From NCBI RefSeq assembly GCF_055900595.2, contig NZ_CM148325.1: a DNA stretch of 64,000 nucleotides. One strand, given 5' to 3'. Below are positions 2,343-11,647 of the stretch, in pieces. The translations under genes and the position numbers were made by a program. Every line of letters starts with the position of its first letter. The stretch's first letter is position 1. The notes under the pieces were generated by a model. The model was given only the letters and a program-made list of their open reading frames with translations, was not told where the DNA came from and did not search any database.

Positions 2343-3592
<1,250 letters not shown>

Positions 3593-4291: not shown

Positions 4292-5188
4292 ATGACAGAC
4301 ACACACTATATTGGTCGCTTCGCCCCCTCTCCTTCTGGCGAGCTTCATTTTGGCTCTCTGATTGCCGCGCTTGGAAGCTTTCTACAGGCTCGCGCCCGGC
4401 AAGGTCGCTGGCTTGTTCGCATTGAAGATATCGATCCGCCTCGTGAAGTTCCCGGTGCCGCAGAGACCATCCTGCGCCAGCTGGAACATTACGGTCTACA
4501 CTGGGACGGCGATGTTCTCTGGCAATCGCAACGTCACGACGCCTATCGCGAAGCACTCGCATGGTTACATGAGCAAGGGTTAAGTTATTACTGCACCTGC
4601 ACGCGCGCACGTATTCAAAGCATTGGCGGTATTTACGACGGTCATTGCCGGGAGTTGCATCATGGGCCAGAAAACGCTGCTGTACGTATTCGCCAGCAGC
4701 ATCCGGTCACCCAGTTTACTGACCAGCTGCGCGGCATTATTCATGCCGACCAAAAACTGGCGCGGGAAGATTTTATTATTCATCGTCGTGATGGTTTATT
4801 TGCCTATAACCTGGCGGTGGTGGTGGATGATCACTTCCAGGGCGTGAGCGAAATTGTCCGCGGGGCAGATTTGATCGAACCGACAGTGCGGCAAATCTCG
4901 CTGTACCAGCTTTTTGGCTGGCAGGTGCCAGATTACATTCATTTGCCACTGGCACTTAATCCACAAGGCGCTAAACTTTCCAAGCAGAATCATGCGCCTG
5001 CGTTGCCAAAAGGCGATCCTCGGCCGGTGTTAATCGCGGCACTTCAATTTCTGGGCCAGCAGGCAGAAACACACTGGCAGGATTTCAGCGTTGAGCAAAT
5101 TCTCCAGTCAGCCGTCACAAACTGGACGCTGACTACCATTCCTGAGTCGGCAATTGTAAATTCAACATTCTCAAATGCGTCATGCTGA
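4292..5188 (+). CDS. gluQ: Glutamyl-Q tRNA(Asp) synthetase (GluRS paralogue YadB)
   Basis: Translation [23 protein letters not shown]... with class I aaRS HxGS motif. ATG at 4292 is chosen over the track ORF start at 4262, which lies inside the dksA terminator hairpin. Confidence 0.85.
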
Positions 5189-5247
5189 GCTATGATTAGC
5201 CGCTATTTTTTTGTCCTGAATGATGTTTGACACTACCGAGGTGTACT

Positions 5248-6645
5248 ATTTTTACCCGAGTCGCTAATTTTTGCCGCAAGGTGCTAAGCCGCGAGGAAAG
5301 CGAGGCTGAACAGGCAGTCGCCCGTCCACAGGTGACGGTGATCCCGCGTGAGCAGCATGCTATTTCCCGCAAAGATATCAGTGAAAATGCCCTGAAGGTA
5401 ATGTACAGGCTCAATAAAGCGGGATACGAAGCCTGGTTGGTTGGCGGCGGCGTGCGCGACCTGTTACTTGGCAAAAAGCCGAAAGATTTTGACGTAACCA
5501 CTAACGCCACGCCTGAGCAGGTGCGCAAACTGTTCCGTAACTGCCGCCTGGTGGGTCGCCGTTTCCGTCTGGCTCATGTGATGTTTGGCCCGGAGATTAT
5601 CGAAGTTGCGACCTTCCGGGGACATCACGAAGGTAACGTCAGCGACCGCACGACCTCCCAACGCGGGCAAAACGGCATGTTGCTGCGCGACAACATTTTC
5701 GGTTCCATCGAAGAAGACGCCCAGCGCCGCGATTTCACCATCAATAGCCTGTATTACAGCGTGGCGGATTTTACGGTCCGCGATTACGTTGGTGGCATGA
5801 AGGATCTGAAAGACGGCGTTATCCGTCTGATTGGTAACCCGGAAACGCGCTACCGTGAAGATCCGGTACGTATGCTGCGCGCGGTTCGTTTTGCCGCCAA
5901 ATTGGGCATGCGCATCAGCCCGGAAACCGCAGAACCGATCCCACGCCTGGCAACCCTGCTAAACGATATTCCTCCGGCACGCCTGTTTGAAGAATCGCTT
6001 AAACTGCTACAAGCGGGCTACGGTTACGAAACCTATAAACTGTTGTGTGAATACCATCTGTTCCAGCCGCTGTTCCCGACCATTACCCGCTACTTTACGG
6101 AAAATGGTGACAGTCCAATGGAGCGGATCATTGAGCAGGTGCTGAAGAATACTGACACGCGTATTCATAACGATATGCGCGTCAACCCGGCGTTCCTGTT
6201 TGCCGCCATGTTCTGGTATCCCCTGCTGGAAACAGCACAGAAAATCGCGCAAGAGAGCGGCCTGACTTATCACGACGCTTTCGCGCTGGCAATGAACGAT
6301 GTGTTAGACGAAGCCTGCCGTTCACTGGCGATCCCGAAACGGCTAACCACTTTAACGCGTGATATCTGGCAGTTACAGTTGCGCATGTCCCGCCGTCAGG
6401 GTAAACGCGCATGGAAATTACTCGAACATCCGAAGTTCCGTGCCGCTTATGACCTGCTGGCACTGCGTGCTGAAGTAGAACGCAACGCCGAGCTACAACG
6501 TCTGGCGAAATGGTGGGGTGAGTTCCAGGTTTCCGCGCCGCCGGACCAAAAAGGGATGCTTAACGAACTGGATGAAGAACCGTCACCGCGTCGTCGTACT
6601 CGTCGCCCGCGCAGACGTGCGCCGCGCCGTGAGGGCACCGCATGA
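5248..6645 (+). CDS. pcnB: Poly(A) polymerase I
   Basis: Track ORF 5227..6645 recognised as PcnB (nucleotidyltransferase motif [17 protein letters not shown]; Arg-rich C-terminus). Annotated from the ATT codon at 5248 (IFTRVANF...), following the known non-AUG initiation of pcnB. Exact start is uncertain from sequence alone. Confidence 0.85.
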
Positions 6646-7118
6646 CAGTGGCGTATATTGCTATCGGCAGCAATCTGGCCTCTCCGCTGGAGCAGGTCAA
6701 TGCTGCCCTGAAGGCAATAGATGACATTCCTGAAAGCCGCATTCTTGCCGTTTCTTCGTTTTACCGCACCCCACCACTGGGGCCGCAAGATCAACCCGAT
6801 TACTTAAACGCAGCCGTGGCGCTGGAAACCTCTCTTACAGCTGAAGAACTCCTCAACCACACACAGCGTATTGAGTTGCAGCAAGGTCGCGTCCGCAAAG
6901 CTGAACGCTGGGGACCGCGCACGCTCGATCTTGATATCATGTTGTTTGGTAATCAGGTCATAAACACTGAGCGCCTGACCGTTCCGCACTATGATATGAA
7001 GAATCGTGGATTTATGTTGTGGCCGCTGTTTGAGATCGCGCCGGAACTGGTGTTTCCTGATGGTGAAACGCTGCAAGCAAGACTCACTACTTTCCCTCCC
7101 TGCCCACAGCACTGGTAA
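6642..7118 (+). CDS. folK: 2-amino-4-hydroxy-6-hydroxymethyldihydropteridine pyrophosphokinase (HPPK)
   Basis: 158-aa ORF recognised as FolK; its ATG overlaps the pcnB stop (ATGA), indicating translational coupling. Confidence 0.9.
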
Positions 7119-7621
7119 ACCACATTTCTGGAAAAGCGTATTGGGTAATGCAATGTTGTATAATATTATTTTATAGTTTCAATGAATTAATTCTCTCTCC
7201 CCCATCATAAAAATCACAAAAAAACAGCATTAAACATATAATTACGGCAAATATATTTTCATTACCTATATTAACTTTTCTCTTTATAAGAGGTTTTTAA
7301 TGATAATGAACCAGTTTATTCTGGGTACTATGCCTCACTCCCGGTATTAGCACTGGATAGCGCTTAACTGGATTCTGTCAGGCTGGGACGGGGCAACAAG
7401 AGCATACAACGACCAGTCCTTAACGCGTGATTATTAATTTCTACAGCGTATCATCATATTATTTAAATCTGCCCAACCTCACCAAATACATTCATAAAAT
7501 GCATAATGATAATAAATCATAAAATACATTCACCGAAGATATTTCTCTTTAAAGAGCGTGACATTTATAATAAGTATTGGTGAGAAAAATCACCCCCATT
7601 AATTTTTATAAGGATATTCCC

Positions 7622-8191
7622 ATGTTAAAAAAAAGTGCTATTGCTGCGGCATTAGTGATGTTCACCACTTCTGCTTTCGCGCTGGATGGCGGTCAATTAG
7701 ATTTCGCGGGTTTGGTGAGTGACAACACTTGCGTCTTGCACGTCAACGGTGGCGCCCAGGACGGTCAGATTACCCTGCAAACCGCCACAACCACTGAAGT
7801 TAATCAGGCCGGTGTTGTCCAACTTGCCAGCCCTGGCGCAAAACCGGAAGCCTTCTCTATTACGATCGATTGCTCGGACGATCCACAGGGCGCCTCTGCC
7901 AATCTGAGCATGGGTTCCGTGTTCTTCAGCAACAGTCAGGGCACTCTGAACAACGATCTCTCCATTAGCCAGGCGGCTACCGGGGTCGCGATTGCCATTC
8001 ACTACCTTACCGATGCCACTACCTACGAACAGATGAGAGTGAACGACAGCACTGATGTTAAAAACCTGCTGTTTACCAACGGCAAAGCGGTTTACAACTT
8101 TAAAGCGTCATATGTAAAACAGGCAGCAACAGTTAACGCAACGGCAGGTTATGTCAAAACCAACGCCGCTTATACAGTGACTTACCAGTAA
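7622..8191 (+). CDS. yadN: Fimbrial major subunit (type 1 pilin family), yad operon
   Basis: ATG at 7622 preceded by AAGGA; signal peptide MLKKSAIAAALVMFTTSAFA; pilin-like length and a C-terminal Tyr-rich beta-strand (YTVTYQ). The track ORF starts earlier at a TTG with no ribosome-binding site. Confidence 0.85.
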   Translation: MLKKSAIAAALVMFTTSAFALDGGQLDFAGLVSDNTCVLHVNGGAQDGQITLQTATTTEVNQAGVVQLASPGAKPEAFSITIDCSDDPQGASANLSMGSVFFSNSQGTLNNDLSISQAATGVAIAIHYLTDATTYEQMRVNDSTDVKNLLFTNGKAVYNFKASYVKQAATVNATAGYVKTNAAYTVTYQ

Positions 8192-8248
8192 ATATCTGCA
8201 TCACCCGACAGCCCACGGGCTGTTGGGTCACTCAATAAGGATAGTGTT

Positions 8249-8992
8249 ATGACCAGGATGTGTCAGTTTGTTGTTTCCACTGTTTTCGTCGCATCGACAG
8301 CCGTTTTCAGCCTCACCGCGCAAGCAGATATTGTGCTTTCCGGTACGCGCATTATTTACAATGCCGACCAGAAAGACGTCACATTGCGCATGGAAAACAA
8401 AGGTGCCCGTCCACTATTAGTTCAGACCTGGATTGATACCGGCAGCGAAAATGCCGACCCCAGCACACTGAAAGTGCCTTTTACCGTGACGCCGCCGGTT
8501 TCCCGCGTTGATGGTAAAAAAGGCCAAACGGTAAAAATTGCATGGAACGCCAGCCAGACCCTTCCAGCCGATCGCGAAAGCGTTTATTGGTTCAATGCGC
8601 TGGAAGTCCCCCCCAAGATGAGCGATGCCGATGCCAAAGGAAAAAACATTCTGCAACTGGCTTTCCGTACCCGTATCAAGCTGTTCTATCGCCCAACCGG
8701 TCTGGCGGGTAACCCGGCTGATGCACCAAAACAGTTAACCTGGCGTCTTCAGACTTCAGCCGGAAAAGTGGTGCTGCAGGCGACAAACCCAACGCCTTAT
8801 CACGTCTCATTCAGCAGTATTACCCTTGCCTCAGGCGGTAACAACTATACCGTGGAAACCAGTATGGTCGAGCCAAAAAGCAGTGCGGAAATGGTGGTAA
8901 AAGGCGCTCCCCATTCTGTGTCTGGCGCAACGGTTGATTACTCAGCCATAAATGATTTTGGCGGTGGAATTGACGGCAAAGTCAAACTTTGA
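8249..8992 (+). CDS. yadV: Periplasmic fimbrial chaperone (PapD/FimC family)
   Basis: 247-aa ORF with signal peptide and the PapD-like N-terminal fold signature (IYNADQKDVTLRMENKG...). Confidence 0.9.
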   Translation: MTRMCQFVVSTVFVASTAVFSLTAQADIVLSGTRIIYNADQKDVTLRMENKGARPLLVQTWIDTGSENADPSTLKVPFTVTPPVSRVDGKKGQTVKIAWNASQTLPADRESVYWFNALEVPPKMSDADAKGKNILQLAFRTRIKLFYRPTGLAGNPADAPKQLTWRLQTSAGKVVLQATNPTPYHVSFSSITLASGGNNYTVETSMVEPKSSAEMVVKGAPHSVSGATVDYSAINDFGGGIDGKVKL

Positions 8993-9024
8993 TGCCCACA
9001 GACCATATCGGCTGAGATCGTACA

Positions 9025-11631
9025 ATGAAAATCCCCGACGATGGCAAAAGAATTCAACGCTCGCCACTCGCTTGCCTGATTGCGTGTAGCCTGCTGCCCT
9101 GCACACAAAATGTGTGGGGGGCAAACGAGACCGTTGAGTTTGATAACACGTTCCTGATGGGTGCAGGCGCCAGGGATATTGATGTCAATCGTTATAGCAA
9201 AGGTAACGCAACATTACCGGGGCGCTATGACGTCAGCGTGTTTATTAATAACCAGGCCAGCGCCAATCTGAAAATCGAATTTATTGAATTAGACCCTGAA
9301 CACGCTGCTCAGCCCTGTATCTCCACCAACACATTATTACAACTGCATATTCGCCAGCCAGAAAAGTTAGCGGATAACGCAATTTTGCAAAAACGCGAAA
9401 ACGCTGCGCAGGATTGCCTGAACGTAGAGGTTGCTATTCCGCAATCGAGCGTCGCTTACAATAGCAACGATCAGCGGCTTGATATCAGCATGCCGCAAAT
9501 CTGGCTGCAGAGAACCTATGCCAACTATGTCGATCCGTCGCTGTGGGATGAAGGCATCAATGCCGCAATGCTCTCTTACACCCTTAACGGCTGGCGCAGT
9601 GAATCCCCCAATCAAACCACAGAAACCAGCTACGCCGGACTGATGGGCGGTATCAATTTATGGGGATGGCATTTTCGCTCACATGGTAACTATTCGTGGG
9701 ACAAAAAAGACGGCGGCAGTTTTGAATTCCAGGACAAATACCTGCAACGCGATATCGCCGCGCTCCGCTCTCAGCTGGTAATGGGTGAAACCAATACCAC
9801 AGGAGAAACCTTCGATTCTGTGCCTGTTCGTGGGCTGCGACTCTATAGCGAAAGCCGCATGTTGCCCCCAACGCTGGCATCATATGCGCCCGTTATCCGT
9901 GGCGTGGCAAACTCTAACGCGAAAGTCACGATCACCCAAAACGGCTATAAAATTTATGAAACGACCGTGCCGCCTGGTCCATTCGCGATTGACGATCTCA
10001 CGCCGGCAGGGTTCGGCGCCGATCTCGAGGTGACCATCACCGAATCGGACGGTTCAAAGCGTACGTTTAGTCAGGCTTATTCATCGGTGATCCAGATGAT
10101 GCGTCCCGGCGTGGGCAAATGGGATATCAGCGCCGGTGAGGTCAATAAAGAGGAACTCCAGGATAAACCGAACCTGCTGCAAGGTACCTACTATTACGGG
10201 TTGAGTAACACCTTCACCGGCTACACCGGCCTGCAAATGACCGATAACGGCTACTGGGCCGGTTTATTAGGGTTGGGGGTGAATACATCGCTGGGCGCTT
10301 TCTCATTCGATGTTACTCAGTCGCATGCCGAAATTCCTGACGATAAAACCTATAGTGGACAGAGTTACCGTGTTTCATGGAACAAATATTTCGCCCCGAC
10401 CGAAACCTCACTCAACATTGCCGCCTATCGCTACTCCACTGAAAACTATCTGGGGTTGAACGACGCGTTAACGCTGATTAATTCTGCCAACCATCCTGAT
10501 GAAGAAGGCTATTCGGGGATTGTCAGTTATGCACGCATGAAAAATCAGTTCAGCGTTAGCATTAATCAAACGTTAAAAAGTGATGAACGTGACTATGGCT
10601 CTTTCTATGTGAATGGCACATGGACAGATTACTGGGTAACCAACGAATCACAGAGCAGTTTTGCCTTTGGCTACAGCAATGCCTTTAACTGGGCGAGCTA
10701 CAGCGTCAGCCTGCAACGCACATACGACGAAGACAATAAGAAGGATGACTCGGTTTATCTGAGCGTGACCATTCCGCTTGATAAACTGCTTGGCCGCGAT
10801 AGCCATCAGGGCGGATTCAAAACCCTGAATACCAGCGTTAACAGCGACATGAAAGGTAGCTCGCAATATAACGCCAATGCCTCGGGCTACAGCCAGGATA
10901 ATCGCTGGAGTTACAGCGTGAATACTGCCTATAACGTGCAGAAAAACAGCGACAGCCTGAAAAGTATCAGCGGTTTTACCAGCTACGAGTCGCCGTGGGG
11001 AACATTTTCAGGCTCAGCCTCCACCAGCAGCGATCGCTCACGTCAGTATGGGCTCAGCACCGATGGCGGTTTTGTACTCCACCGCCACGGTCTGACCTTC
11101 AGTAACGACAGTTTTACCGACTCTGACACGTTGGCGCTGATCAACGCCCCGGGTGCAAAAGGCGCGCGCATTAACTTTGGTAACAGCACCATCGACCGTT
11201 TTGGCTACGGCGTGACCAGTTCACTGTCACCGTACCGGGAAAATACCGTCGCGCTCGATGTTAACGATCTGGATAACGACGTGGAACTCAAAAACACCAG
11301 TAGCGTCGCCATTCCGCGCCAGGGTTCCGTCATTTTCAGCCACTTTGACACCGACACCGGGCGTTCTGCCATTCTCAATCTACTGCGCAGCAACAATCAG
11401 CCCGTGCCGTTTGCTTCCGATATTACCGACGATAAAGGGACCTCTATCGGGACTGTCGGCCAGGGCAGTCAGGCATTTGTACGCGGTATCGCCGACAGCG
11501 GAGAACTGACGGTCACCTGGTATGAGAAAAATAGCCGCCAGCAGTGCCGTATTCATTATCAGATACCGTCATCACCCACCATGACCGGTAAAACCATCGT
11601 ACTCAACGCCGTGCCATGCACCCAGCAATAA
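9025..11631 (+). CDS. htrE: Outer-membrane fimbrial usher (FimD/PapC family)
   Basis: 868-aa ORF with usher-like N-terminal plug/beta-barrel sequence and a C-terminal Cys pair; sits between the chaperone and the minor pilins. Confidence 0.9.
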   Translation: MKIPDDGKRIQRSPLACLIACSLLPCTQNVWGANETVEFDNTFLMGAGARDIDVNRYSKGNATLPGRYDVSVFINNQASANLKIEFIELDPEHAAQPCISTNTLLQLHIRQPEKLADNAILQKRENAAQDCLNVEVAIPQSSVAYNSNDQRLDISMPQIWLQRTYANYVDPSLWDEGINAAMLSYTLNGWRSESPNQTTETSYAGLMGGINLWGWHFRSHGNYSWDKKDGGSFEFQDKYLQRDIAALRSQLVMGETNTTGETFDSVPVRGLRLYSESRMLPPTLASYAPVIRGVANSNAKVTITQNGYKIYETTVPPGPFAIDDLTPAGFGADLEVTITESDGSKRTFSQAYSSVIQMMRPGVGKWDISAGEVNKEELQDKPNLLQGTYYYGLSNTFTGYTGLQMTDNGYWAGLLGLGVNTSLGAFSFDVTQSHAEIPDDKTYSGQSYRVSWNKYFAPTETSLNIAAYRYSTENYLGLNDALTLINSANHPDEEGYSGIVSYARMKNQFSVSINQTLKSDERDYGSFYVNGTWTDYWVTNESQSSFAFGYSNAFNWASYSVSLQRTYDEDNKKDDSVYLSVTIPLDKLLGRDSHQGGFKTLNTSVNSDMKGSSQYNANASGYSQDNRWSYSVNTAYNVQKNSDSLKSISGFTSYESPWGTFSGSASTSSDRSRQYGLSTDGGFVLHRHGLTFSNDSFTDSDTLALINAPGAKGARINFGNSTIDRFGYGVTSSLSPYRENTVALDVNDLDNDVELKNTSSVAIPRQGSVIFSHFDTDTGRSAILNLLRSNNQPVPFASDITDDKGTSIGTVGQGSQAFVRGIADSGELTVTWYEKNSRQQCRIHYQIPSSPTMTGKTIVLNAVPCTQQ

Positions 11632-11647
11632 TGTTCCAGGAGAGGAA

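What the first reader, a model, noticed from the sequence alone, without database searches (positions are those of the whole stretch)
7119..7621. 503-bp AT-rich non-coding leader upstream of the yad fimbrial operon
This is one of the two longest intergenic regions in the window and is strongly AT-rich, with A/T tracts and reiterated CATAAAAT-type motifs (7490-7530). That composition is typical of H-NS-silenced regulatory regions and of phase-variable fimbrial promoters. No ORF of plausible coding character lies inside it.
Basis: seen in the sequence. Interest (0 to 1): 0.4.

Follow-up and report, generated by a model that had tools for sequence, protein, structure and literature searches.

The report
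Fimbrial promoter region holding a gene relic
The 503-bp AT-rich gap is the ordinary control region of a rare, Escherichia albertii-type version of the Yad fimbrial operon, and its middle is the decayed start of a lost fimbrial subunit gene, not a phase-variation switch.

Summary
Window 7119-7621 is a 503-bp gap between folK and a seven-gene chaperone-usher operon. Its GC is 32.6% against 51.65% for the window, the lowest of any 503-bp stretch. CATAAAAT occurs twice.

The region is a composite, not a uniform leader:
- 7201-7299 matches the promoter and ribosome-binding region of a first major-subunit gene ("A1") that relatives still carry.
- 7300 to about 7427 (48.8% GC) is the decayed 5' end of that gene. 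It has a 10-nt deletion, an in-frame stop and a truncated 3' part.
- 7482-7621 matches the spacer between the two tandem subunit genes. It holds a conserved -10 (TATAAT 7566-7571), a conserved GGTGA-N6-TCACC stem or palindrome, and the ribosome-binding site.

The operon sits at the yad position but its proteins are only 37-60% identical to K-12 Yad. This leader occurs in 14 of 5426 complete E. coli genomes and cannot be aligned with the K-12 leader. It is 94-96% identical to the E. albertii leader.

H-NS silencing is plausible by analogy with other yad alleles but is untested for this one. Phase variation is not supported: there are no GATC sites, no inverted repeats beyond chance, no recombinase gene and no inverted copies.

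The finding is ordinary, with a small evolutionary twist.

The parts
6642..7118 (+). folK. Its last ~44 nt (from about 7075) already belong to the allele-specific segment.
   Evidence: RefSeq annotation of a genome with an identical leader. BLAST to K-12 stops at 7074, and 6974-7123 is only 73.6% identical to K-12.
7119..7621 (+). The whole 503-bp AT-rich intergenic leader.
   Evidence: 32.6% GC, the lowest in the window. No annotated feature. No Rfam match better than E=8.5 in 6600-8200.
7213..7242 (+). Distal promoter-like module P1: -35 ATCACA (7213-7218), 18-nt spacer holding an A7 tract, -10 TATAAT (7237-7242). It coincides with a predicted curvature peak.
   Evidence: It is the only sigma-70-type hit of the consensus scan, 10 of 12 matches. 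It lies in register with TTTACA-N18-TATAAA/C upstream of intact A1 genes in Pseudocitrobacter loci. A similar TTTACA box precedes the first subunit gene in Salmonella and Citrobacter. Predicted curvature is about 19 deg/turn at about 7220, above the 99th percentile (wedge parameters recalled from memory).
7288..7350 (+). Relic ribosome-binding site AAGAGG (7288-7293) and relic start codon (7300-7302), opening a 16-codon ORF that ends at TAG 7348-7350.
   Evidence: Read from the sequence. The ATG and Shine-Dalgarno site align with the start of intact A1 genes. The ORF is intact in all 8 allelic leaders but shows 4 nonsynonymous and 1 synonymous change, so nothing points to peptide selection.
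7300..7427 (+). Pseudogene relic of the 5' end (about codons 1-45) of a lost upstream major-subunit paralogue (A1). This is the GC-normal island.
   Evidence: 7201-7398 aligns to the P. vendiensis A1 promoter plus its first 36 codons: 62.5% over 208 nt, E=1.5e-13 for this pairwise comparison. For the 7283-7400 segment, raw score is 32 against 6.1 +/- 3.9 (maximum 14) in 300 shuffles. The best matches are A1 genes, not A2 genes. The alignment shows a 10-nt deletion and an in-frame TAA. Confidently aligned to 7398, probable to about 7427.
7428..7481 (+). Junction segment with no detectable homologue, presumably the site of the deletion that removed the rest of A1 and its terminator.
   Evidence: It lies between the two BLAST-aligned blocks. 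The P. vendiensis terminator hairpin after A1 has no counterpart here.
7482..7621 (+). Proximal module, homologous to the spacer between the tandem subunit genes A1 and A2 of relatives.
   Evidence: 7482-7700 aligns to P. vendiensis 2860-3079 at 75% over 222 nt, E=2e-39. Ten- and fourteen-sequence alignments support it.
7490..7533 (+). Two conserved ATTCAY boxes (7490-7495 and 7528-7533), interleaved with the two CATAAAAT copies (7493, 7518). They are candidate regulator sites of unknown specificity.
   Evidence: Positions. The 'AT.CA' and 'ATTCA' columns are invariant or 90% conserved across 10 sequences of several genera.
7543..7571 (+). Proximal promoter-like module P2: weak -35-like TTCTCT (7543-7548) inside the conserved TATTTTTCT box, 17-nt spacer, -10 TATAAT (7566-7571).
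   Evidence: Coordinates. The T-A-T-x-A-T pattern is invariant or 90% conserved in 10 sequences. It is still present before the second subunit gene of Salmonella, Citrobacter and Kluyvera.
7579..7594 (+). GGTGA-N6-TCACC: either a 5-bp stem-loop at the predicted 5' end of a P2 transcript, or a palindromic protein-binding site.
   Evidence: The stem is kept while the loop varies. 94% of cells pair, against 40-62% when the 3' partner is slid. One pair shows a compensatory G-C to A-U change in 2 related sequences. It is part of the minimum-free-energy fold of 7577-7640 (-10.6 kcal/mol, z=-2.0). It is not conserved in Salmonella, Citrobacter or Kluyvera.
7608..7624 (+). Ribosome-binding site ATAAGGA (AAGGA at 7610-7614), 7-nt spacer, and start codon ATG (7622-7624) of the major subunit gene.
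   Evidence: ATAAGGA.ATT is invariant across 10 sequences and nearly so across 14. The CDS start comes from RefSeq.
7622..8191 (+). Major fimbrial subunit gene (A2 type), the first gene of the operon this leader serves.
   Evidence: Amino-acid identity is 53% to K-12 YadN and 88% to P. vendiensis A2, and 84-91% to E. albertii proteins.

Best explanation
The region is the cis-regulatory DNA of a rare, E. albertii-type allele of the Yad/Sta-family chaperone-usher fimbrial operon at the folK-panB locus. It is built from three pieces of an older arrangement in which two tandem major-subunit genes (A1, then A2) preceded the chaperone gene.

(i) 7201-7299 is the A1 promoter and ribosome-binding region (P1).
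(ii) 7300 to about 7427 is a decayed stub of the A1 coding sequence, left when a deletion removed the rest of A1 and its terminator.
(iii) 7482-7621 is the former A1-A2 spacer. It carries a second conserved promoter-like core (P2), a short conserved stem-loop or palindrome at the predicted transcript start, and the ribosome-binding site of the surviving subunit gene.

Shown here: the homologies, the composite anatomy, the AT-richness, and the absence of known phase-switch features.

Inferred: transcription starts at P2, possibly also at P1 with a ~370-nt leader. The AT-rich flanks are coated and silenced by H-NS under laboratory conditions, as in other yad alleles. Expression needs counter-silencing or an activator, because the -35 of P2 is weak.
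For: Locus and allele:
- Synteny is folK, leader, major subunit, chaperone, usher, three minor subunits, adhesin, panB.
- Identity to K-12 Yad proteins is 60% (usher), 55% (chaperone), 53% (major subunit) and 37% (adhesin).
- The leader is present in 14 of 5426 complete E. coli genomes, against 3056 for the K-12-type leader and 9 for the UTME-7 type.
- It is 94-96% identical to the leaders of the three E. albertii loci fetched.
- It has no match in plasmids or phages.

Tandem ancestry:
- folK followed by two tandem subunit genes is seen in P. vendiensis, P. corydidari, two uncultured relatives and Citrobacter.
- Salmonella and Kluyvera also carry two tandem subunit genes before the chaperone; their loci do not reach folK.

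Relic:
- 7201-7398 aligns to the A1 upstream region plus codons 1-36 (E=1.5e-13). The shuffle test on 7283-7400 gives a z-score of about 6.6.
- A1 genes match over about 200 nt including the promoter. A2 genes match only the conserved mature N-terminus block.
- A 10-nt deletion and an in-frame stop are visible.

Promoter modules:
- P1 is in register with A1 promoters.
- The P2 -10, the stem and the Shine-Dalgarno site are conserved across genera although the surrounding sequence has diverged.

H-NS plausibility:
- 32.6% GC, dense A/T tracts and TpA steps, and a curvature peak at P1.
- All orthologous leaders are 27-38% GC.
- yad is H-NS-repressed in CFT073 and EC958, reported as such in K-12, and listed as H-NS-bound in K-12 (PMC13245861; PMC5797941).

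No alternative element:
- Rfam finds nothing.
- The 392-nt fold of a putative P1 transcript scores z=-0.96.
Against: - There is no transcription, ChIP or mutant evidence for this allele. All H-NS data come from leaders that share no detectable sequence with it.
- There is no good match to the high-affinity H-NS 10-mer: the best has 2 mismatches, and density is only about twice the window average.
- P1 looks partly degenerate among alleles. E. albertii L010 has CATAAT instead of TATAAT, and L009 has a 19-nt spacer.
- The -35 of P2 matches only 3 of 6 positions, and the consensus scan did not call P2.
- Support for the stem rests on one compensatory event. A dimeric protein site would show the same symmetry.
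- Fourteen -10-like hexamers lie on the + strand of this AT-rich DNA, so promoter-like matches are cheap.
- The curvature calculation used wedge parameters recalled from memory.
Confidence: 0.65

Rival explanations
1. Only the last ~80-140 nt (P2, stem, Shine-Dalgarno site) is functional. P1, the relic and the junction are neutrally decaying leftovers with no regulatory role beyond offering AT-rich DNA.
For: P1 varies among alleles: a -10 mutation in L010, an A7/A8 spacer length difference in L009 and a spacer substitution in MFDS1022581. Beyond E. albertii, only the proximal block can be aligned with other genera. Within E. coli the leader diverges about as fast as folK third codon positions: 94.9% against 95.0% for window versus N96.
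Against: The P1 -35/-10 geometry is still in register with intact A1 promoters after genus-level divergence. No intrinsic terminator was found on the + strand between P1 and the gene. Between E. coli and E. albertii, leader identity (95.7%) exceeds folK third-position identity (85.5%), although mosaic recombination can explain that.
Confidence: 0.2
2. The leader has been exapted. The relic's intact ribosome-binding site and 16-codon ORF, or an RNA from the GC island, act as a regulatory upstream ORF or RNA. One example would be coupling translation to Rho-dependent termination in a long P1 transcript.
For: AAGAGG lies 6 nt before the ATG, and the 16-codon frame is intact in all 8 allelic leaders from two species. 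About 270 nt of untranslated, C-over-G-skewed sequence follows it (GC skew about -0.2).
Against: The ORF shows 4 nonsynonymous and 1 synonymous change. At about 5% divergence an intact 48-nt frame is expected by chance. There is no Rfam hit and no excess folding stability (z=-0.96). The sequence is not conserved beyond E. albertii.
Confidence: 0.08
3. It is a phase-variation switch: an invertible promoter, a Dam/Lrp methylation switch, or a slipped-strand tract.
For: Many fimbrial operons are phase-variable. An A7 tract sits in the P1 spacer and is A8 in one E. albertii locus. An A8 tract lies at codons 3-5 of the subunit gene (7627-7634).
Against: There are 0 GATC sites. The longest perfect inverted repeat is 8 nt against a shuffle mean of 9.1. 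No recombinase or PapI/PapB-like gene is present. All 14 E. coli matches and the 3 E. albertii loci fetched are collinear. The coding A8 tract is interrupted in other alleles and is never out of frame. Yad is described as not phase-variable (PMC13245861).
Confidence: 0.03
4. The 7300-7427 similarity reflects a partial tandem duplication of the 5' end of the downstream subunit gene, not the remains of a separate older gene.
For: A weak direct repeat links 7347-7367 to 7676-7696 inside the downstream gene at 76% identity. All paralogues share the signal-peptide and mature N-terminus block.
Against: The relic plus 100 nt upstream aligns to A1 genes (E=3e-16 to 2e-5). The window's own gene gives only a 31-nt match at E=0.33. 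Intact A1 genes sit at exactly this position in five loci that include folK.
Confidence: 0.04

Closest known systems
yadN promoter region of E. coli K-12, CFT073 and EC958 (H-NS-repressed Yad fimbriae)
   Same: Same chromosomal position (folK to first fimbrial gene), same seven-gene operon architecture, and a similarly AT-rich leader (K-12: 369 bp, 26.6% GC). yad is H-NS-repressed in CFT073 and EC958 and reported as such in K-12. It is described as not phase-variable, with ArcA and temperature effects reported in K-12 (PMC13245861; PMC5797941).
   Different: No detectable DNA similarity between the leaders. Proteins are only 37-60% identical. By the 80% HtrE threshold of PMC13245861 this operon would count as Yad-negative. 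No relic was found in the K-12 leader. The K-12 leader lacks the GGTGA-N6-TCACC element.
Tandem-subunit Yad/Sta-family loci of Pseudocitrobacter, Citrobacter, Salmonella and Kluyvera
   Same: Same chromosomal position after folK in the Pseudocitrobacter and Citrobacter loci. The P1-like promoter before the first subunit gene, and the TATTTTTCT box, TATAAT and ATAAGGATATT before the second, are shared. Wurpel et al. equate Yad with Salmonella Sta by locus and usher phylogeny (PMC3559732).
   Different: Those loci keep an intact first subunit gene, and P. vendiensis also keeps a terminator hairpin after it. Here only about 127 nt of that gene survive. Whether the Salmonella locus fetched (L017) is sta itself was not checked.
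fimS invertible element of type 1 fimbriae
   Same: An AT-rich regulatory region upstream of a major fimbrial subunit gene.
   Different: No flanking inverted repeats beyond chance, no adjacent FimB/FimE-type recombinase, and no inverted copies in 17 genomes or loci.
pap regulatory region (Dam/Lrp/PapI methylation switch)
   Same: A fimbrial intergenic control region of roughly 400-500 bp.
   Different: No GATC sites at all, and no divergent papI/papB-like genes.
5'-terminal stem-loops that stabilise mRNA (for example the ompA 5' UTR; from my own knowledge of Emory, Bouvet and Belasco 1992)
   Same: A short hairpin would lie within a few nt of the predicted 5' end of a P2 transcript, ahead of a highly expressed structural gene.
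   Different: The transcription start is only predicted. The stem has 5 bp and a single compensatory event. A palindromic protein site (GTGA-N6-TCAC, the CRP-like core) fits equally well.

Membership tests
H-NS-silenced AT-rich regulatory region | AT content far above the genome average | tested here: met
   32.6% GC against 51.65%, the lowest 503-bp window of the 64 kb. Orthologous leaders are 27-38% GC.
H-NS-silenced AT-rich regulatory region | H-NS occupancy, and derepression in an hns mutant | not testable with these tools
   Known only for non-homologous yad leaders. There are mutant data and published ChIP-seq for CFT073, mutant data for EC958, and three ChIP data sets for K-12 (PMC13245861; PMC5797941).
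H-NS-silenced AT-rich regulatory region | High-affinity nucleation motif (TCGATAAATT-like; motif recalled from memory) | tested here: inconclusive
   The best match has 2 mismatches (7179). Density at 3 or fewer mismatches is 17.9 per kb against 7.9 per kb for the window, as expected from AT content alone.
H-NS-silenced AT-rich regulatory region | A-tracts and intrinsic curvature | tested here: met
   21.9 tracts per kb against 8.5. Predicted curvature peaks at 19 deg/turn at about 7220 (above the 99th percentile); the leader mean is at the 92nd percentile (parameters from memory).
Invertible-promoter phase switch (fimS type) | Inverted repeats flanking the promoter | tested here: not met
   The longest perfect inverted repeat is 8 nt against a shuffle mean of 9.1. 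The best imperfect arms are 23 nt at 74% complementarity, in AT-rich sequence.
Invertible-promoter phase switch (fimS type) | Adjacent site-specific recombinase gene | tested here: not met
   The neighbours are pcnB and folK upstream and fimbrial structural genes downstream.
Invertible-promoter phase switch (fimS type) | Both orientations found among genomes | tested here: not met
   All 14 E. coli matches are single, full-length and collinear with their flanks. The 3 E. albertii loci fetched align collinearly.
Pap-type Dam/Lrp methylation switch | Two GATC sites about 100 bp apart in the control region | tested here: not met
   0 GATC in 503 bp, where about 2 are expected from the window density. 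Relatives have 0-1.
Pap-type Dam/Lrp methylation switch | Divergent papI/papB-type regulator genes | tested here: not met
   None is annotated, and no ORF longer than 31 codons lies in the leader.
Yad/Sta-type chaperone-usher operon (locus plus usher phylogeny, PMC3559732) | Located between folK and panB | tested here: met
Yad/Sta-type chaperone-usher operon (locus plus usher phylogeny, PMC3559732) | Gene order: major subunit, chaperone, usher, three minor subunits, adhesin | tested here: met
   Seven genes in the same order and of similar sizes as yadN-yadV-htrE-yadMLKC.
Yad/Sta-type chaperone-usher operon (locus plus usher phylogeny, PMC3559732) | Usher groups with HtrE | tested here: inconclusive
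   60% identity over 849 aa. No tree was built. This is below the 80% cut-off used in PMC13245861.
K-12-type yadN leader | Sequence homology of the leader | tested here: not met
   A blastn search with 11-nt words finds only the 14 genomes that carry this allele. The three-way alignment shows no conserved block outside the ribosome-binding area.
Pseudogene relic | Significant similarity to an intact gene | tested here: met
   E=1.5e-13 to 3e-16 against A1 genes. Raw score is 32 against a shuffle maximum of 14.
Pseudogene relic | The intact counterpart sits at the same position in relatives | tested here: met
   folK, leader, A1, spacer, A2, chaperone in five loci. Salmonella and Kluyvera loci also show two tandem subunit genes before the chaperone.
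Pseudogene relic | Disrupted reading frame | tested here: met
   A 10-nt deletion, an in-frame TAA replacing CAA, and loss of everything after about codon 45.
Known cis-regulatory RNA or sRNA (Rfam) | Match to a curated family, or folding stability beyond shuffles | tested here: not met
   Best E-values are 8.5 and 9.9, both chance-level. The 392-nt fold scores z=-0.96. The 64-nt proximal UTR scores z=-2.0, which is marginal.

The most novel reading that the evidence does not exclude
The relic has been co-opted. A long P1 transcript carries the still-translatable 16-codon remnant ORF. Its translation, or the adjacent C-rich untranslated stretch, gates read-through into the operon, while P2 and its 5' stem-loop give a second, independently controlled entry point. 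A dead structural gene would then have become a regulatory leader, conserved across E. coli and E. albertii.
Probability: 0.08. Interest if true: 0.45.

Novelty: new member of a known kind. Interest (0 to 1): 0.22.

Why it matters
It matters mainly as a caution. The 'yad' locus is not one thing. This window carries a rare E. albertii-type allele whose control region shares no sequence with the K-12 or ExPEC yad promoters studied so far. Regulatory results from those strains (H-NS, ArcA, serum induction) cannot simply be transferred to it.

The analysis also shows that two tandem major-subunit genes are probably the older layout of the Yad/Sta family. E. coli and E. albertii alleles have lost the first gene, which explains an otherwise odd GC-normal island inside an AT-rich leader. 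It also yields two concrete, testable promoter candidates.

Nothing here changes current understanding of fimbrial regulation.

Tried and rejected
- Rfam scan of 6600-8200 at E up to 10: only two chance-level hits, a CRISPR repeat model and yeast U1.
- Folding of a putative 392-nt P1 transcript: no more stable than shuffles.
- Small ORFs. The 31-codon ORF 7427-7522 loses its GTG start in three alleles. The 25-codon ORF 7506-7583 is frameshifted by a 1-nt indel in relatives. The 16-codon relic ORF shows no sign of purifying selection.
- Invertible-element repeats and Dam sites: none beyond chance.
- H-NS 10-mer motif: no strong site.
- Mobile-element origin: no match in plasmid or phage collections, and a single copy per genome.
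- RcsAB-box resemblance of TAAGGATATTCCCA (7609-7622; consensus recalled from memory). Rejected because the TCC half is not conserved in relatives and the conserved part is the Shine-Dalgarno site.
- CRP-site reading of GGTGA-N6-TCACC. Not excluded, but its centre would lie about 8 nt downstream of the predicted P2 start, and two relatives change the G/C of both half-sites together.
- Using leader conservation between E. coli and E. albertii (95.7%) as evidence of constraint. Rejected because identity along the flanks is mosaic (76-97% per 200 nt), and because within E. coli the leader diverges as fast as folK third positions.
- The single genome-contig scan returned only one locus. Relatives were therefore gathered by protein search and contig look-ups.
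Full report
**Observation**

The window is E. coli chromosome. It runs hrpB, thpR, sfsA, dksA, gluQ, pcnB and folK (6642-7118), then a gap, then a seven-gene chaperone-usher operon, then panB and panC. In a genome whose leader is 100% identical (EC42405), RefSeq places the first fimbrial CDS at 7622 and annotates nothing in 7119-7621.

The gap is 32.6% GC against 51.65% for the window. It contains the lowest-GC 503-bp stretch of the 64 kb. A/T tracts are 2.6-fold denser than the window average and TpA steps 2.6-fold more frequent. CATAAAAT occurs at 7493 and 7518. The only longer annotated gap in the first 50 kb is pdhR-aroP at 540 bp.

Two qualifications apply:
- The composition falls into three parts: 25.8%, 48.8% and 28.6% GC for 7119-7300, 7301-7425 and 7426-7621.
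- The repeat signal is modest. Nine per cent of shuffles contain as many near-perfect 13-mer repeats.

**Which operon this is**

The position and gene order are those of yad. The proteins are only 60% (usher), 55% (chaperone), 53% (major subunit) and 37% (adhesin) identical to K-12 HtrE, YadV, YadN and YadC.

The leader occurs in 14 of 5426 complete E. coli genomes, even with a search sensitive to about 65-70% identity. The K-12-type leader occurs in 3056 genomes and a third type (strain UTME-7) in 9. The window and K-12 leaders cannot be aligned.

The closest proteins outside E. coli are from Escherichia albertii at 84-91% identity, followed by Pseudocitrobacter. The three E. albertii loci fetched carry the same leader, 506 bp long and 94-96% identical, at the same position.

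The allele-specific segment runs from about 7075, inside the end of folK, to about 14774. The flanking pcnB, folK and panB are unusually diverged from K-12 at 86-94% identity. By position and architecture this is a Yad/Sta-type operon in the sense of Wurpel et al. (PMC3559732). By the 80% usher criterion of Ellison et al. (PMC13245861) it would count as Yad-negative.

**Anatomy of the leader**

Pseudocitrobacter vendiensis has folK, a ~500-bp AT-rich gap, a first subunit gene A1, a terminator hairpin, a ~200-bp spacer, and then a second subunit gene A2 that is 88% identical to the window's subunit. folK followed by two tandem subunit genes also appears in P. corydidari, two uncultured relatives and Citrobacter. 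Salmonella and Kluyvera loci likewise have two tandem subunit genes before the chaperone, but those loci do not extend to folK.

Against these loci the window leader resolves into blocks:
- 7201-7398 aligns to the A1 promoter region plus the first 36 A1 codons: 62.5% over 208 nt, E=1.5e-13 for that pairwise comparison. For the 7283-7400 segment the raw score is 32, against 6.1 +/- 3.9 and a maximum of 14 in 300 dinucleotide shuffles.
- 7482-7700 aligns to the A1-A2 spacer plus the A2 start: 75% over 222 nt, E=2e-39.
- 7428-7481 aligns to nothing.

The multiple alignment puts the window's AAGAGG and ATG (7288-7302) on the A1 ribosome-binding site and start codon. It shows a 10-nt deletion and a TAA in place of the CAA codon within the motif ALDGGQLDF.

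The block matches A1 genes over about 200 nt, upstream region included. A2 genes, including the window's own, match only the short block that all paralogues share. The GC-normal island is therefore the stub of a lost first subunit gene.

No complete E. coli genome shows a second, separate match to an A1 gene. A weak trace of an A1 3' end in the 702-bp leader of [Enterobacter] lignolyticus hints at an independent loss there (E about 0.005-0.03).

**Promoter candidates**

The consensus scan finds one sigma-70-type site on the + strand: ATCACA-N18-TATAAT at 7213-7242. It lies in register with TTTACA-N18-TATAAA/C of the intact A1 genes. It also coincides with the predicted curvature maximum (wedge parameters from memory). 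I call it P1.

In the proximal block, alignments of 10 and 14 sequences from several genera show islands of conservation within otherwise diverged sequence:
- two ATTCAY boxes;
- a TATTTTTCT box;
- TATAAT at 7566-7571, where T-A-T-x-A-T is invariant or 90% conserved;
- the ribosome-binding site ATAAGGA.ATT.

I call the -10 and its weak -35 P2.

Just downstream of the predicted P2 start lies GGTGA-N6-TCACC (7579-7594). Its stem is kept in 9 of 10 close relatives while the loop differs. One pair changes G-C to A-U in two related sequences. Overall 94% of cells pair, against 40-62% in slid controls. It is not kept in Salmonella, Citrobacter or Kluyvera. The data cannot separate a 5'-terminal RNA hairpin from a palindromic protein site.

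Caution is needed with all of these. Fourteen -10-like hexamers lie on this strand, P1 is degenerate in two E. albertii loci, and no transcript data exist.

**How it most likely works**

The leader probably serves as the operon's control region. Transcription would start from P2 and possibly from P1. The two AT-rich flanks would act as H-NS binding platforms that keep the operon silent unless counter-silenced.

The H-NS step is an inference. It rests on composition, on the fact that every orthologous leader examined is 27-38% GC despite having no shared sequence, and on published work with other alleles. That work shows a more than 100-fold derepression of the yad promoter in a CFT073 hns mutant, H-NS binding to yad in CFT073 ChIP-seq, and similar results in EC958 (PMC13245861). 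K-12 yadN is listed as H-NS-bound in three genome-wide studies and is raised 2.4-fold by SlyA overproduction (PMC5797941). No strong match to the high-affinity H-NS motif is present.

**Phase variation**

I found no support:
- no GATC site in the leader;
- no inverted repeats beyond chance;
- no recombinase or PapI/PapB-type gene nearby;
- no inverted copy among 17 genomes or loci;
- homopolymer tracts of at most 8 nt that are interrupted, or differ by one base, in relatives.

The literature describes Yad as not phase-variable (PMC13245861).

**Other readings**

- No Rfam family matches.
- A 392-nt P1 transcript would fold no better than shuffles.
- The small ORFs are not conserved. The intact 16-codon relic ORF shows 4 nonsynonymous and 1 synonymous change.
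- The leader has no match in plasmids or phages.
- The high E. coli-E. albertii identity of the leader (95.7%, against 85.5% at folK third positions) looks like constraint. However, identity along the flanks is mosaic, and within E. coli the leader diverges as fast as synonymous sites. Recombination history is the simpler explanation.

**Verdict**

This is an ordinary AT-rich fimbrial control region. It belongs to a rare, trans-species allele of the yad locus, and its odd central island is explained as a gene relic. It is a new member of a known kind, of low interest.

Noticed in passing
window 7075-14774, with flanks 4874-7074 and 14775-15876: The whole fimbrial cassette, including the last ~44 nt of folK (which give FolK a different C-terminus), is allele-specific. 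The adjoining pcnB, folK and panB/panC are only 86-94% identical to K-12, whereas 5174-5623 is 99-100% identical. This is a recombination mosaic around a hypervariable locus.
   Followed up: partly
window 7627-7634: An A8 homopolymer spans codons 3-5 of the major subunit gene (ATG TTA AAA AAA AGT). It is interrupted (AAATAAAA or AAAGAAAA) in other E. coli alleles and other genera, and is in frame everywhere seen.
   Followed up: partly
window 7218-7224; L009 equivalent: The A7 tract inside the P1 spacer is A8 in one E. albertii locus, giving a 19-nt spacer. Another E. albertii locus (L010) has CATAAT in place of the P1 -10, and AAGAA in place of the subunit gene's AAGGA Shine-Dalgarno site.
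   Followed up: partly
L017 456-2088; L018 1501-3133; L019 466-2085: Salmonella, Citrobacter and Kluyvera homologous loci carry two tandem major-subunit genes separated by about 445-460 nt before the chaperone gene. The tandem layout therefore seems widespread in this fimbrial family.
   Followed up: partly
L013 1799-2500 ([Enterobacter] lignolyticus): The 702-bp folK-subunit gap (37.7% GC) has a GC-rich centre with weak similarity to the C-terminus of A1-type subunits (E about 0.005-0.03). A hairpin-like sequence follows. This may be an independent relic of the first subunit gene.
   Followed up: partly
L011 3901-5567 (E. albertii, SRR7244272): The usher gene is called as two ORFs, of 481 and 385 residues. 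The operon may therefore be disrupted in that isolate.
   Followed up: no
window about 42350-43110: This is the second lowest-GC stretch of the window (minimum 33.6%). It corresponds to the divergent pdhR-aroP intergenic region, which is 540 bp in EC42405.
   Followed up: no
window 11648-12217 and downstream: The window is not identical to EC42405 beyond the leader. The first minor-subunit gene differs by 3 nt in length, and by pdhR the coordinates are offset by about 244 nt. The source strain is therefore a relative, not EC42405 itself.
   Followed up: no
window 7609-7622: TAAGGATATTCCCA matches 12 of 14 positions of the RcsAB box consensus as I recall it. The TCC half is not conserved in relatives, and the conserved half is the ribosome-binding site.
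   Followed up: partly
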